Positions 6,412-8,099 of a stretch of 64,000 bases of DNA are shown here, piece after piece. Position 1 is the stretch's first letter, and every line of letters starts with the position of its first letter. A program made the translations under genes and the position numbers. The DNA is from Escherichia coli (GTDB lineage Bacteria; Pseudomonadota; Gammaproteobacteria; Enterobacterales; Enterobacteriaceae): the NCBI RefSeq assembly GCF_044324875.1, contig NZ_CP172185.1. One strand, given 5' to 3'. The notes below the pieces were generated by a model. It saw only the letters and a list, made by a program, of their open reading frames with translations. It made no database searches and was not told the DNA's origin.

Positions 6412-7050
6412 TCAGTCTGTGGGGCGCAGCCGGGCCTTCAGCTCTTCGGGGGTAAACGGCGGATCTCGCCGGTGCAGCATCGCATGGCAGTTGGGACATA
6501 CCGGGATCAGATCGGTTTCAGGGTTCAGGCGGTAGTCCTGCTTTATCCCGGCCAGCGGGATGAGATGGTGGATATGGATAAAGCCCTGGCCGATATCGCC
6601 ATAGCGGCTGGCCATATCCAGACCGCATACCTGACACTGGCAGCCATGCAGGCGAAGCGCCGCCTGACGAGCCTGACGGTCGCGCTCATAGCGATTGACC
6701 ACCACCTGCAACGCCGCCCCTTCCACGTACTCCATGGTCGTCTGCCCCTCATCGGGGAAAAGCGCAACCTCGTCATCGCCAGCGCCCTGCGACGCGATCG
6801 TAAATCCTTGCTCCAGTAACAGACGCACGCATTTTGATTTAATCCCCCCGCTGAAATCCGCCGGGGTAAATTCCGTTCCCGTCGCAAGCGTGGCCGCTAA
6901 CCCGACGATGGCTTTTGAAGGATACCGACGCCCCTCAAACTCGATCTCATACAGACGCGCGCTTTTAAACTGATGCGCAACGCCTGCATCGTAAGCGCGA
7001 ATGGCGGCGATGATGCATTCCCTGGATAAATGGTCCGGTAGTTTTTTCAT
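6412..7050 (-). CDS. HNH endonuclease, McrA-like C-terminal nuclease with an uncharacterised N-terminal domain
   Basis: 212 aa; C-terminus CQCQVCG...HIHHLIPL...CPNCHAMLH is a Cys4/His HNH motif resembling McrA; N-terminal ~110 aa unassigned. Confidence 0.7.
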   Translation of the reverse strand: MKKLPDHLSRECIIAAIRAYDAGVAHQFKSARLYEIEFEGRRYPSKAIVGLAATLATGTEFTPADFSGGIKSKCVRLLLEQGFTIASQGAGDDEVALFPDEGQTTMEYVEGAALQVVVNRYERDRQARQAALRLHGCQCQVCGLDMASRYGDIGQGFIHIHHLIPLAGIKQDYRLNPETDLIPVCPNCHAMLHRRDPPFTPEELKARLRPTD

Positions 7051-7229
7051 AAGACATAGCTATCTGATGGCGCGAAGCTTGAGTATAAATAGAAAGCTAT
7101 GGTCTTTTCGAACAAATAACTGGCAGTGATAATTAAATCGCGATCCACGTAGAATCGCCGCATCTGGTAGGTTGATCGGCAAGGATTTTGCGAGCATCAT
7201 CGCATTTATTTAGCTGCCAATGTAACGCT

Positions 7230-8099
7230 ATGCCCTCCAGCACGACCCTGCAACACGCGATCGAGAACATCACCATCTGGCGCAAAGGCGAACAGCGTGC
7301 GCCGCATAAACCACTATTGCTGCTGTACGTCCTCTCGCAATACCAGCGCGGCCATGCGCGGATGTTCGACTACGCCTCGGAGATACGTGATGAGCTGCAT
7401 AGCCTGCTGGAACGCTTTGGCCCGCAGCGCCGCCAGTACCGGCCGGACATGCCCTTCTGGCGCCTGAAAGGCGACGGCTTCTGGGAGCTACACAACAGCG
7501 AACAGTGCTCAACCCAGGGCAGCCGACAGCCGCCCGGCAAAGAGCTGGAGCTCTGCCACGTCGCCGGCGGCTTTGATGAGCAGCATTTTGCGTTACTTAA
7601 CAGAAATAAGAAGCTGATCAATACCCTCGCCCATCAGATCCTCGAGGCGCACTTTCCGGAGAGTATTCAGGAAGAACTGGCTGAAGAGATGGGGTTTGAT
7701 CTGCTGCAGATCCGCAAAGAGCGCGACCCGCATTTTCGCCAGCAGGTGCTGCGCGCCTATAACTATGAGTGCGCTATCTGCGGCTTCAATATGCGCCATG
7801 ATAATACCTCCGTCGCCCTGGAAGCGGCCCATATCAAGTGGAAGCAGCACGGCGGCCCCTGCGAAATCCCTAACGGCCTGGCGCTCTGCGCGATTCACCA
7901 TAAGGCTTTTGATAAAGGATCCATTGGTCTGGATGAGGATATGCGCATCCAGGTTTCGCCGGCGGTGAACGGCGGAGGCATCGTTGGCAGGTTGTTCTGG
8001 GATTTTGATGGTAAGCCGATTACCTTGCCGATGGGGAAAGAATGCTATCCCCAGGAGGGGTTTGTGGCGTGGCACCGGCGGGAGGTGTTCAGGGGATGA
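7230..8099 (+). CDS. HNH endonuclease with a large N-terminal domain, possibly a modified-DNA reader
   Basis: Track ORF begins at TTG 7188; first ATG at 7230 (MPSSTTLQH...). C-terminus CAICGF...AHIKWKQHGG...CAIHHKAFDKG is HNH. Divergent from the 6412-7050 gene. Confidence 0.7.
   Translation: MPSSTTLQHAIENITIWRKGEQRAPHKPLLLLYVLSQYQRGHARMFDYASEIRDELHSLLERFGPQRRQYRPDMPFWRLKGDGFWELHNSEQCSTQGSRQPPGKELELCHVAGGFDEQHFALLNRNKKLINTLAHQILEAHFPESIQEELAEEMGFDLLQIRKERDPHFRQQVLRAYNYECAICGFNMRHDNTSVALEAAHIKWKQHGGPCEIPNGLALCAIHHKAFDKGSIGLDEDMRIQVSPAVNGGGIVGRLFWDFDGKPITLPMGKECYPQEGFVAWHRREVFRG

What the first reader, a model, noticed from the sequence alone, without database searches (positions are those of the whole stretch)
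6412..8099. Divergent pair of HNH nucleases with different N-terminal domains: possible modification-dependent (type IV-like) restriction locus
Seen in sequence: two back-to-back genes separated by a 180-bp divergent promoter region, each ending in a Cys/His HNH motif (CQCQVCG...HIHHLIPL...CPNCH, and CAICGF...AHIKWKQHGG...CAIHHKAFDKG) but with unrelated N-terminal regions of ~110 and ~190 aa. Established knowledge: McrA-type and phosphorothioate- or methylation-dependent restriction enzymes pair an HNH nuclease with an N-terminal modified-DNA reader domain. Inference: the pair may be two specificities of modification-dependent restriction, or a nuclease with a paralogous regulator, placed as cargo beside the xylose module.
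Basis: partly seen in the sequence, partly recalled or inferred. Interest (0 to 1): 0.6.

Follow-up and report, generated by a model that had tools for sequence, protein, structure and literature searches.

The report
Two neighbouring restriction nuclease genes
Two back-to-back genes encode DNA-cutting defence enzymes: one belongs to a known family that destroys sulfur-modified (phosphorothioated) foreign DNA, the other is an unstudied relative with a different sensor-like domain, and the locus is an ordinary defence-island locus with one open question.

Summary
ORF1 (6412-7050, minus strand, 212 aa) and ORF2 (7230-8099, plus strand, 289 aa) are transcribed divergently across 179 bp. Both end in intact HNH nuclease motifs.

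ORF2 is a clear member of the known EcoWI-type phosphorothioate-dependent restriction family. It scores 441 bits on NCBIfam NF045808 (cut-off 180), and its sulfur-pocket residues are present.

ORF1 joins the "head" domain of ScoMcrA (Pfam ScoMcrA_N, function unknown) to a McrA-type zinc-finger HNH. In other proteins this head domain sits beside modified-DNA readers (EVE, SRA, DUF3427) and defence nucleases or NTPases. ORF1 is therefore most likely a second, stand-alone type IV-like nuclease of unknown target.

The same divergent pair occurs in K. aerogenes, three Citrobacter species and the E. coli nanS-yjhR locus. Both genes are under purifying selection. Each gene is also often found alone. 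In 5426 E. coli genomes the intact copies are not positively associated (326 observed, about 390 expected). EcoWI also works alone.

I conclude that these are two independent enzymes in a defence hot-spot, not an obligate two-gene system, a regulator or a homing endonuclease. Novelty is modest. The open items are ORF1's target and a strongly conserved promoter/palindrome block upstream of ORF2.

The parts
6341..6367 (.). GC-rich hairpin between the convergent GH43 gene (stop at 6329) and ORF1 (stop at 6412). It is a likely bidirectional terminator.
   Evidence: Terminator scan. The hairpin is conserved in the Klebsiella alleles with or without ORF1.
6412..7050 (-). ORF1, 212 aa: a ScoMcrA_N (head) domain fused to a McrA-type HNH nuclease.
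   Evidence: homologues carry PF26345 ScoMcrA_N plus PF01844 HNH. dN/dS is 0.09-0.16.
6787..7050 (-). Head domain of ORF1 (residues 1-88).
6415..6699 (-). HNH zinc-finger nuclease domain of ORF1 (residues about 118-212), reached through a low-confidence linker (residues 89-117, 6700-6786).
   Evidence: Pfam HNH at residues 139-195. Aligns to the EcoKMcrA 6ghc HNH at residues 184-267. C139, C142, H159, H161, H162, D180, C185, N187, C188, H189 and H193 are invariant in 19 homologues. Foldseek hits are EcoKMcrA, Cap5 and Cas9 HNH domains.
7051..7229 (.). 179-bp divergent intergenic region.
   Evidence: GC is 0.43 against 0.58 in both genes.
7082..7111 (-). Sigma-70-like promoter candidate for ORF1 (TCGAAA-N18-TATACT).
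   Evidence: Consensus scan only, so this is weak evidence.
7172..7200 (+). Conserved promoter-like block of ORF2: TTGATC (-35-like), a 17-nt spacer, then CATCAT (-10-like).
   Evidence: TTGA and cAT.AT are invariant or nearly invariant upstream of the SBD-HNH gene in 11 enterobacterial lineages, while flanking intergenic DNA is not conserved. Promoter function is inferred, not shown.
7188..7205 (+). Imperfect palindrome TTGCGAGCATCATCGCAt overlapping the -10-like hexamer. It is a candidate operator.
   Evidence: It is present upstream of every SBD-HNH orthologue examined, with or without ORF1. Changes in the two arms are not compensatory.
7230..8099 (+). ORF2, 289 aa: an EcoWI-type phosphorothioate-dependent restriction endonuclease (SBD-HNH).
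   Evidence: NF045808 at 440.8 bits against a cut-off of 180, covering the full length. PGAP annotates identical proteins the same way. dN/dS is 0.04-0.06.
7248..7697 (+). Sulfur-binding domain (SBD) of ORF2, residues about 7-156.
   Evidence: Aligns to the ScoMcrA SBD (5zmo residues 13-157; 5zmm residues 104-246). H26, K27, M74 and P75 correspond to ScoMcrA H116, R117, Y164 and P165 and are invariant in the enterobacterial clade. Lys and Met at these positions are compatible with binding (PMC6224610).
7770..7934 (+). HNH_2 nuclease core of ORF2, residues 181-235.
   Evidence: Pfam PF13391 at E 1.7e-9. C181, C184, H201, N215, C220, H223 and H224 are invariant.

Best explanation
The locus holds two autonomous, single-polypeptide HNH restriction nucleases, transcribed back-to-back at the edge of a CP4-57/KpLE2-type genomic island (a defence hot-spot).

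ORF2 is an EcoWI-type phosphorothioate-dependent enzyme. Its N-terminal sulfur-binding domain docks on an Rp-phosphorothioate in incoming DNA that was modified by a Dnd system in the donor. Its C-terminal HNH_2 domain then cuts nearby, probably as a dimer. This destroys plasmids or phage DNA arriving from Dnd+ bacteria. Family membership is shown here; the activity is inferred from characterised relatives.

ORF1 is a separate nuclease. The small ScoMcrA-type head domain, tethered by a flexible linker to a McrA-type zinc-finger HNH, serves as the DNA-targeting or sensing module. Its target (a DNA modification or another DNA feature) is unknown. This role is inferred from domain associations.

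The two genes travel together as a linked module in several enterobacterial lineages, but they do not need each other.
For: ORF2:
- NF045808 scores 441 bits against a cut-off of 180.
- The SBD aligns to solved ScoMcrA and SprMcrA SBDs.
- The pocket residues H26/K27/M74/P75 are invariant and compatible with binding (PMC6224610).
- EcoWI alone cuts GpsAAC/GpsTTC DNA and restricts dnd+ plasmids in vivo (PMC7461809).

ORF1:
- The head domain matches only the ScoMcrA head.
- The HNH and zinc residues are invariant.
- The predicted structure is two beads joined by a disordered linker.
- dN/dS is 0.09-0.16, including against a strain that lacks ORF2.

Head domain in general:
- It occurs in 3409 protein clusters.
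- In 100 representatives it accompanies HNH (41), HNH_2 (19), EVE (11), McrB-type AAA_5 (7), NOV_C (4), SRA (3), DUF3427 (3) and MrcB_N (2). It also sits at the N-terminus of several PADLOC defence-candidate nucleases.

Context:
- Neighbours elsewhere include McrBC, and hsdR plus an Mrr_N-HNH gene.

Independence:
- SBD-HNH occurs without ORF1 in Salmonella, Enterobacter, Lelliottia, Buttiauxella, Pseudocitrobacter, Kluyvera, E. coli EC291 and a K. pneumoniae allele.
- The ORF1 type occurs alone in an E. coli ICE, Pantoea, Atlantibacter, Pseudescherichia, K. pneumoniae ATCC 13883 and E. coli TD225-C4.
- In 5426 E. coli genomes, 1239 have an intact ORF1-like gene, 1707 an intact SBD-HNH-like gene and 326 both, against about 390 expected if independent.
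Against: - The divergent pair is conserved in at least four lineages with different flanking genes and with parallel divergence (79/86, 68/80 and 65/79 % aa identity). ScoMcrA fuses head and SBD in one chain. Both facts leave room for a functional link.
- The E. coli counts use megablast coverage thresholds and ignore phylogenetic non-independence.
- ORF2's sequence specificity, and whether the host lacks a cognate dnd system, were not established. No dnd gene was seen among the window ORFs and homologous annotated regions inspected, but the whole genome was not available.
Confidence: 0.7

Rival explanations
1. Split-ScoMcrA two-component system. ORF1 and ORF2 act together, as a heteromer or by cooperation on the same DNA. 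In this reading the head-HNH protein supplies a second cut, a second specificity or a control function for phosphorothioate-dependent restriction, reproducing in two chains what ScoMcrA does in one.
For: - ScoMcrA carries the head and SBD domains in one polypeptide.
- The divergent arrangement is conserved in the K. pneumoniae type, K. aerogenes, three Citrobacter species and the E. coli nanS locus, with different flanks.
- Divergence of the two genes is parallel.
- The two proteins share a pre-HNH helix.
Against: - EcoWI is a homodimer that works alone in vitro and in vivo.
- Each gene is frequently found without the other, intact and under purifying selection.
- Intact copies are not positively associated in E. 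coli (326 observed, about 390 expected).
- The two HNH domains belong to different Pfam families.
- None of about 150 top head-domain representatives carries a detectable SBD.
- The conserved promoter/palindrome block belongs to ORF2 alone.
Confidence: 0.12
2. ORF1 is not a restriction enzyme. It would instead be a non-specific or otherwise regulated nuclease or toxin, or an accessory function of the mobile element (for example in island or ICE DNA processing). Its head domain would be a generic DNA-binding or protein-interaction module rather than a modification sensor.
For: - The function of the head domain is unknown.
- The E. coli homologue P0026 sits inside an ICE beside a TraI_2 relaxase and ArdC.
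- There is only weak winged-helix-like structural similarity.
- No methyltransferase or immunity gene is adjacent.
Against: - The head domain is repeatedly fused to known modified-base readers and to McrB-type NTPases and defence nucleases.
- Neighbours are restriction genes in several genomes.
- A stand-alone, unregulated, non-specific nuclease would be toxic. Yet the gene is intact in about 1239 E. coli genomes without a partner immunity gene.
Confidence: 0.13
3. One or both genes are homing endonucleases of a mobile intron or intein, or of a free-standing selfish element.
For: HNH nucleases include many homing endonucleases.
Against: - There is no intron, intein or interrupted host gene. 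Both genes are free-standing between a terminator and island DNA.
- ORF2 passes a curated restriction-enzyme model.
- Rfam finds no intron or other RNA family at 6300-8400.
- Both N-terminal domains belong to type IV restriction architectures.
Confidence: 0.02

Closest known systems
EcoWI and other SBD-HNH phosphorothioate-dependent endonucleases (Ksp11411I, Bsp305I, SprMcrA); NCBIfam NF045808
   Same: ORF2 has the same two-domain architecture and nearly the same length (289 aa). It matches the curated model over its full length (441 bits). The sulfur-pocket and HNH_2 residues are conserved. Its predicted mass of 33.36 kDa equals the 33.4 kDa reported for EcoWI.
   Different: The EcoWI sequence could not be retrieved with these tools, so exact identity is unknown. 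The commonest E. coli orthologue cluster (P0287) is 79% identical to ORF2. The sequence context recognised by ORF2 is untested.
ScoMcrA (Streptomyces coelicolor Sco4631; PDB 5ZMM): head-SBD-SRA-HNH type IV enzyme
   Different: The domains are split over two genes, each with its own HNH from a different Pfam family (HNH against HNH_2). There is no SRA domain. Sequence identity is low.
EcoKMcrA (E. coli K-12 e14 McrA; PDB 6GHC)
   Same: ORF1's HNH zinc-finger domain aligns to McrA residues 184-267 (E 1e-4; Foldseek 28% identity). Some databases label ORF1 homologues 'McrA'.
   Different: The McrA N-terminal 5mC/5hmC-binding NEco domain is absent and is replaced by the unrelated head domain. ORF1 is therefore not a McrA orthologue, and 5mC specificity cannot be assumed.
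Other reader-HNH type IV / IIM enzymes (SRA-HNH TagI, PUA-wH-HNH HhiV4I, wH-HNH SruGXI)
   Same: They share the logic of a small N-terminal DNA or modification sensor tethered to a C-terminal HNH (PMC11037411; TagI 6ghs hits).
   Different: ORF1's sensor candidate is a different fold family with no known ligand.

Membership tests
SBD-HNH phosphorothioate-dependent restriction endonucleases (EcoWI type, NF045808) | Whole-protein score above the curated NCBIfam cut-off | tested here: met
   ORF2 scores 440.8 bits against a cut-off of 180, matching profile positions 2-284 of 284.
SBD-HNH phosphorothioate-dependent restriction endonucleases (EcoWI type, NF045808) | N-terminal sulfur-binding domain with pocket residues equivalent to ScoMcrA H116, R117 (or K), Y164 (variable) and P165 | tested here: met
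   H26, K27, M74 and P75 align to these positions and are invariant in 8 orthologues. Lys is common at position 117, and Y164M strengthened binding (PMC6224610).
SBD-HNH phosphorothioate-dependent restriction endonucleases (EcoWI type, NF045808) | C-terminal HNH nuclease with the catalytic His/Asn/His and Cys ligands | tested here: met
   Pfam HNH_2 at E 1.7e-9 over residues 181-235. C181, C184, H201, N215, C220, H223 and H224 are invariant.
SBD-HNH phosphorothioate-dependent restriction endonucleases (EcoWI type, NF045808) | Cleavage or restriction that depends on the phosphorothioate modification | not testable with these tools
   This needs enzyme assays or transformation assays with dnd+ DNA.
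SBD-HNH phosphorothioate-dependent restriction endonucleases (EcoWI type, NF045808) | Host lacks a Dnd modification system of the same specificity | tested here: inconclusive
   No dnd gene appears in the annotated regions homologous to the window or among ten of the 14 ORFs of at least 200 aa in window 10.5-36 kb that were tested. The rest of the genome is not available.
ScoMcrA_N (head)-HNH proteins (Pfam PF26345 + PF01844) | N-terminal ScoMcrA head domain | tested here: met
ScoMcrA_N (head)-HNH proteins (Pfam PF26345 + PF01844) | C-terminal HNH with intact catalytic and zinc residues | tested here: met
   PF01844 at E 3.6e-6. The Cys4 and His residues are invariant in 19 homologues.
Type IV (modification-dependent) restriction, applied to ORF1 | Nuclease activity directed at modified DNA only | not testable with these tools
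   There is only associative evidence: domain co-occurrence with EVE, SRA, DUF3427, MrcB_N and McrB-type AAA_5, and restriction-gene neighbourhoods.
EcoKMcrA family, applied to ORF1 | N-terminal NEco 5mC/5hmC-binding domain | tested here: not met
   Only the HNH part (6ghc residues 184-267) aligns. ORF1 residues 1-109 have no match to McrA.
Obligate two-gene system (ORF1 + ORF2) | Consistent co-occurrence of the two genes | tested here: not met
   Each gene is found alone in many lineages. In E. coli, 326 genomes have both intact against about 390 expected under independence.
Homing endonuclease | Residence in an intron or intein, or insertion into a target gene | tested here: not met
   Both genes are free-standing and intergenic. 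There is no Rfam intron hit.

The most novel reading that the evidence does not exclude
The conserved back-to-back pair is a split version of ScoMcrA in which the two proteins cooperate. The head-HNH protein would read a second DNA mark or structure and either complete or gate cleavage by the phosphorothioate reader. A weaker form of the same reading is that the ScoMcrA_N head domain is a sensor for a DNA modification that is not yet recognised. That would make ORF1 the first handle on a widespread, unstudied type IV family (about 3400 protein clusters).
Probability: 0.12. Interest if true: 0.6.

Novelty: new member of a known kind. Interest (0 to 1): 0.3.

Why it matters
ORF2 adds nothing conceptually new. 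It is a routinely annotated EcoWI-type enzyme that bars DNA coming from Dnd+ bacteria.

The useful residue is threefold. First, a compact 212-aa head-HNH protein would be a tractable model for learning what the widespread ScoMcrA_N domain binds. Second, the head-HNH / SBD-HNH module is an old, recurrent and frequently decaying resident of enterobacterial island ends; even K-12 keeps a 206-bp remnant. Third, every SBD-HNH orthologue examined carries a nearly invariant promoter/palindrome block. This suggests tight, host-independent control of a potentially self-toxic nuclease. If ORF1 proved to have a defined modification target, it could become a reagent, as EcoWI did.

Tried and rejected
1. 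Intergenic region as an IS256 fragment. I first read window 7125-7213 as an internal piece of an IS256-family transposase gene, and so took the pair to be a recent IS-made juxtaposition. I rejected this when the Citrobacter and K. aerogenes pairs showed the same block on both sides of the supposed junction. The HNH-only Klebsiella allele and the plasmid copies are the derived state: ORF2 was replaced, leaving its promoter as a scar.

2. Pfam-A scans. The tool's scan found only the HNH domains. Its library predates PF26345 and PF26340, which appeared only in the precomputed annotations.

3. Head + SBD fusions. I searched the top ~150 head-domain representatives with an enterobacterial SBD profile and with jackhmmer seeded from the ScoMcrA SBD. 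There were zero hits. The fusion argument therefore rests on the ScoMcrA clade only.

4. RNA-hairpin reading of the palindrome. Arm substitutions in Kluyvera, Pseudocitrobacter and Lelliottia are not compensatory, and there is no Rfam match. I rejected this in favour of a DNA-level promoter or operator.

5. EcoWI sequence or accession. It was not given in the two EcoWI papers or in the held supplement, so no direct identity figure is available.

6. Known regulator sites. Comparing the palindrome from memory with Fur, LexA and similar sites gave nothing convincing, and I make no claim.

7. Literature on the head domain or on the pairing. [quoted passage not shown]
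Full report
**1. What is in the sequence**

Window 6412-8099 holds two divergently transcribed genes.
- ORF1 runs from 7050 down to 6412 on the minus strand (212 aa).
- The ORF lister starts the second frame at TTG 7188. Orthologues all begin MxSS..., which places the real start of ORF2 at ATG 7230 (289 aa).
- The spacer is 179 bp (7051-7229). It has lower GC (0.43) than either gene (0.58-0.59).
- Pfam detects HNH (PF01844, E 3.6e-6) in ORF1 and HNH_2 (PF13391, E 1.7e-9) in ORF2.
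- The two proteins share only a 51-residue stretch just ahead of the HNH core (35% identity).
- A GC-rich hairpin at 6341-6367 separates ORF1 from the convergent GH43 gene.

**2. ORF2**

ORF2 scores 440.8 bits over the full length of NCBIfam NF045808, 'phosphorothioated DNA-binding restriction endonuclease' (cut-off 180). PGAP gives identical proteins that name.

Residues 11-156 align to the crystallised sulfur-binding domains of ScoMcrA (5ZMO, 5ZMM) and SprMcrA (7CC9). The residues that form the sulfur pocket in ScoMcrA (H116, R117, Y164, P165) correspond to H26, K27, M74 and P75. These four are invariant across eight enterobacterial orthologues. The structural paper states that Lys replaces R117 in most homologues, that Y164 is variable, and that Y164M strengthened binding (PMC6224610).

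The characterised E. coli member, EcoWI, is a dimer that cuts GpsAAC/GpsTTC DNA at N7/N6. Expressed alone, it abolishes transformation by dnd+ plasmids (PMC7461809). ORF2's calculated mass (33.36 kDa) equals the 33.4 kDa quoted for EcoWI. The EcoWI sequence could not be obtained, so identity is not established.

Family membership is shown. Activity and sequence context are inferred.

**3. ORF1**

Residues 7-86 match residues 6-92 of full-length ScoMcrA, the 'head' domain (whole-sequence E 2.8e-8). Residues 110-194 match the HNH domain of EcoKMcrA. Close homologues carry Pfam PF26345 (ScoMcrA_N) plus PF01844.

The zinc-finger cysteines and the HNH histidines are invariant in 19 homologues spanning several phyla. 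ORF1 is not a McrA orthologue, because the NEco reader domain is absent.

**4. What the head domain keeps company with**

A profile of the head domain finds 3409 protein clusters in 1.84 billion representatives. The proteins range from about 95 to more than 1500 residues. Among 100 of the longer representatives, the Pfam partners were:

| Partner domain | Members |
|---|---|
| HNH | 41 |
| HNH_2 | 19 |
| EVE | 11 |
| AAA_5 (McrB type) | 7 |
| nSTAND3 | 6 |
| NOV_C | 4 |
| SAD/SRA | 3 |
| DUF3427 | 3 |
| MrcB_N | 2 |
| AspBHI_N | 1 |

PADLOC models of defence-candidate nucleases match the C-terminal parts of several of these proteins.

The head is therefore a promiscuous N-terminal module of modification-dependent restriction architectures. 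In ORF1 it is the only non-catalytic domain. That makes a DNA-targeting or sensing role the most economical reading, but this is an inference.

**5. Is the pair a unit?**

The window's copy is 100% identical to 11 of 5426 complete E. coli genomes. There it lies in an island next to setC/yicL, together with a xylose/GH43 module that is otherwise Klebsiella DNA.

The same divergent arrangement occurs elsewhere:
- K. aerogenes, with a 179-bp spacer, followed by an Mrr_N-HNH gene and hsdR.
- Three Citrobacter species, with a 140-bp spacer, between symE/tpl and variable island genes.
- The E. coli nanS-yjhR locus, with a 136-bp spacer, next to a McrBC-like pair.

Amino-acid identities to the window's ORF1 / ORF2 fall in parallel: 79/86, 68/80 and 65/79 %. 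dN/dS is 0.09-0.16 for ORF1 and 0.04-0.06 for ORF2 (dS could not be estimated (saturated) for the E. coli nanS comparison, so those dN/dS ranges rest on the Klebsiella and Citrobacter comparisons, and dS is already large for the K. aerogenes and Citrobacter ones). The juxtaposition is therefore old, and it moves between contexts as a module.

**6. But the genes are separable**

SBD-HNH orthologues stand alone in:
- Salmonella (beside the tRNA-Leu integrase);
- E. coli EC291, Enterobacter, Lelliottia, Buttiauxella, Pseudocitrobacter and Kluyvera;
- a K. pneumoniae allele from which ORF1 has been deleted.

ORF1-type genes stand alone in:
- an E. coli ICE, Pantoea, Atlantibacter and Pseudescherichia;
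- K. pneumoniae ATCC 13883;
- E. coli strains whose SBD-HNH gene is truncated to 150 bp.

Among 5426 complete E. coli genomes, 1239 have at least 80% of the nanS-locus ORF1-like gene, 1707 have at least 80% of the SBD-HNH gene, and 326 have at least 80% of the whole pair. Independence predicts about 390. These are crude counts and are not corrected for phylogeny. Another 4859 genomes, including K-12 MG1655, keep at least a remnant.

Combined with EcoWI's autonomous activity, this argues for two independent enzymes linked by history rather than an obligate system. The split-ScoMcrA idea is not excluded, and I put it at about 0.12.

**7. The intergenic region**

I initially misread part of the spacer as an IS256 fragment. 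Comparison with the Citrobacter and K. aerogenes pairs corrected this.

A block TTGATC-N17-CATCAT is overlapped by the imperfect palindrome TTGCGAGCATCATCGCA(A/T) (window 7172-7205). It is almost invariant upstream of the SBD-HNH gene in 11 lineages, whether or not ORF1 is present, while the surrounding intergenic DNA is unalignable. Substitutions in the two arms are not compensatory, and Rfam has no match. I read the block as the ORF2 core promoter with a possible operator. This is untested.

In alleles that lost ORF2, the block survives as a scar. A 156-bp piece (7055-7210) has travelled with an IS-flanked pyruvyl-transferase/glycosyltransferase module onto 19 plasmids, nearly all Klebsiella, and into 29 E. 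coli chromosomes.

**8. Verdict**

The regulator and homing-endonuclease alternatives are not supported. ORF2 is already known biology. ORF1 is a new member of a named but functionally unstudied family. Interest is modest (0.3). The residual novelty lies in the unknown ligand of the head domain and the conserved control element of ORF2.

Noticed in passing
window 7172-7212: A nearly invariant block lies upstream of ORF2: TTGAnn-N17-CATCAT overlapped by the palindrome TTGCGAGCATCATCGCA(A/T), followed by TAT.T. It is conserved in 11 enterobacterial SBD-HNH loci, with or without ORF1, while neighbouring intergenic DNA is not conserved. It is a candidate promoter plus operator, and the binding factor is unknown.
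   Followed up: partly
window 7055-7210; L003 8724-8880, L004/L005 4001-4156: A 156-bp piece of the intergenic region occurs at about 97% identity with no annotation in 29 E. coli chromosomes and 19 plasmids, nearly all Klebsiella. It is always joined to an IS256-family pseudogene and a pyruvyl-transferase/glycosyltransferase module and is flanked by IS5/ISKpn26. It is the scar left when ORF2 was replaced in a Klebsiella allele and the fragment was later mobilised.
   Followed up: partly
L112 5011-5216 (E. coli MG1655 derivative); L100/L113: E. coli K-12 keeps a 206-bp frameshifted remnant of the SBD-HNH gene between nanS and yjhR. Of 5426 complete E. coli genomes, 4859 have at least a remnant and 1707 have a near full-length copy. 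The locus is a decaying ancestral defence site at the end of the KpLE2-type island, and in some strains it sits next to a McrBC-like pair.
   Followed up: partly
L102 2625-2714; L113 6912-7001: A 29-aa ORF with a Pfam YthB hit lies immediately 3' of the E. coli ORF1-like gene, sharing a base with its stop codon, and it survives in genomes where the nuclease gene is mostly deleted. No equivalent ORF follows ORF1 in the window. ORF1's own first 16 residues gave only a chance-level YthB hit (E 0.32).
   Followed up: no
L093 2260-2919 and 1-2058: In K. aerogenes the pair is followed by a third reader-HNH gene (Mrr_N + HNH, 219 aa) and a type I hsdR. That places three different single-chain HNH enzymes in a row.
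   Followed up: no
window 1-8823 against 8824 onward: The window matches E. coli ES1/GF43 at 99.96% only up to 8823. After an IS3-family element (9257-10530) it carries extra cargo absent from ES1. This cargo includes a TonB-dependent heme receptor (11033-13003), IS66 (13810-15423), a UgpB-like binding protein, PTS transporters, a transketolase subunit and a YadA-like adhesin. The porin-xylA-MFS-GH43 module is Klebsiella-type DNA inside an E. coli island near setC/yicL.
   Followed up: partly
window about 8399-8823: In the identical E. coli records, three short pseudogene fragments are annotated directly downstream of ORF2 and before the IS3 element. They are an HTH regulator missing its N-terminus and two hypothetical-protein fragments.
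   Followed up: no
window ORF1 residues 96-146 against ORF2 residues 140-188: The two otherwise unrelated proteins share a 'FP(D/E)...R.ERD...R...L...C..CG' segment just before the HNH core (35% identity, E 2e-6). This also explains ORF1's weak hit to NF045808. It suggests that the two HNH modules are distant relatives with a common lead-in helix.
   Followed up: no
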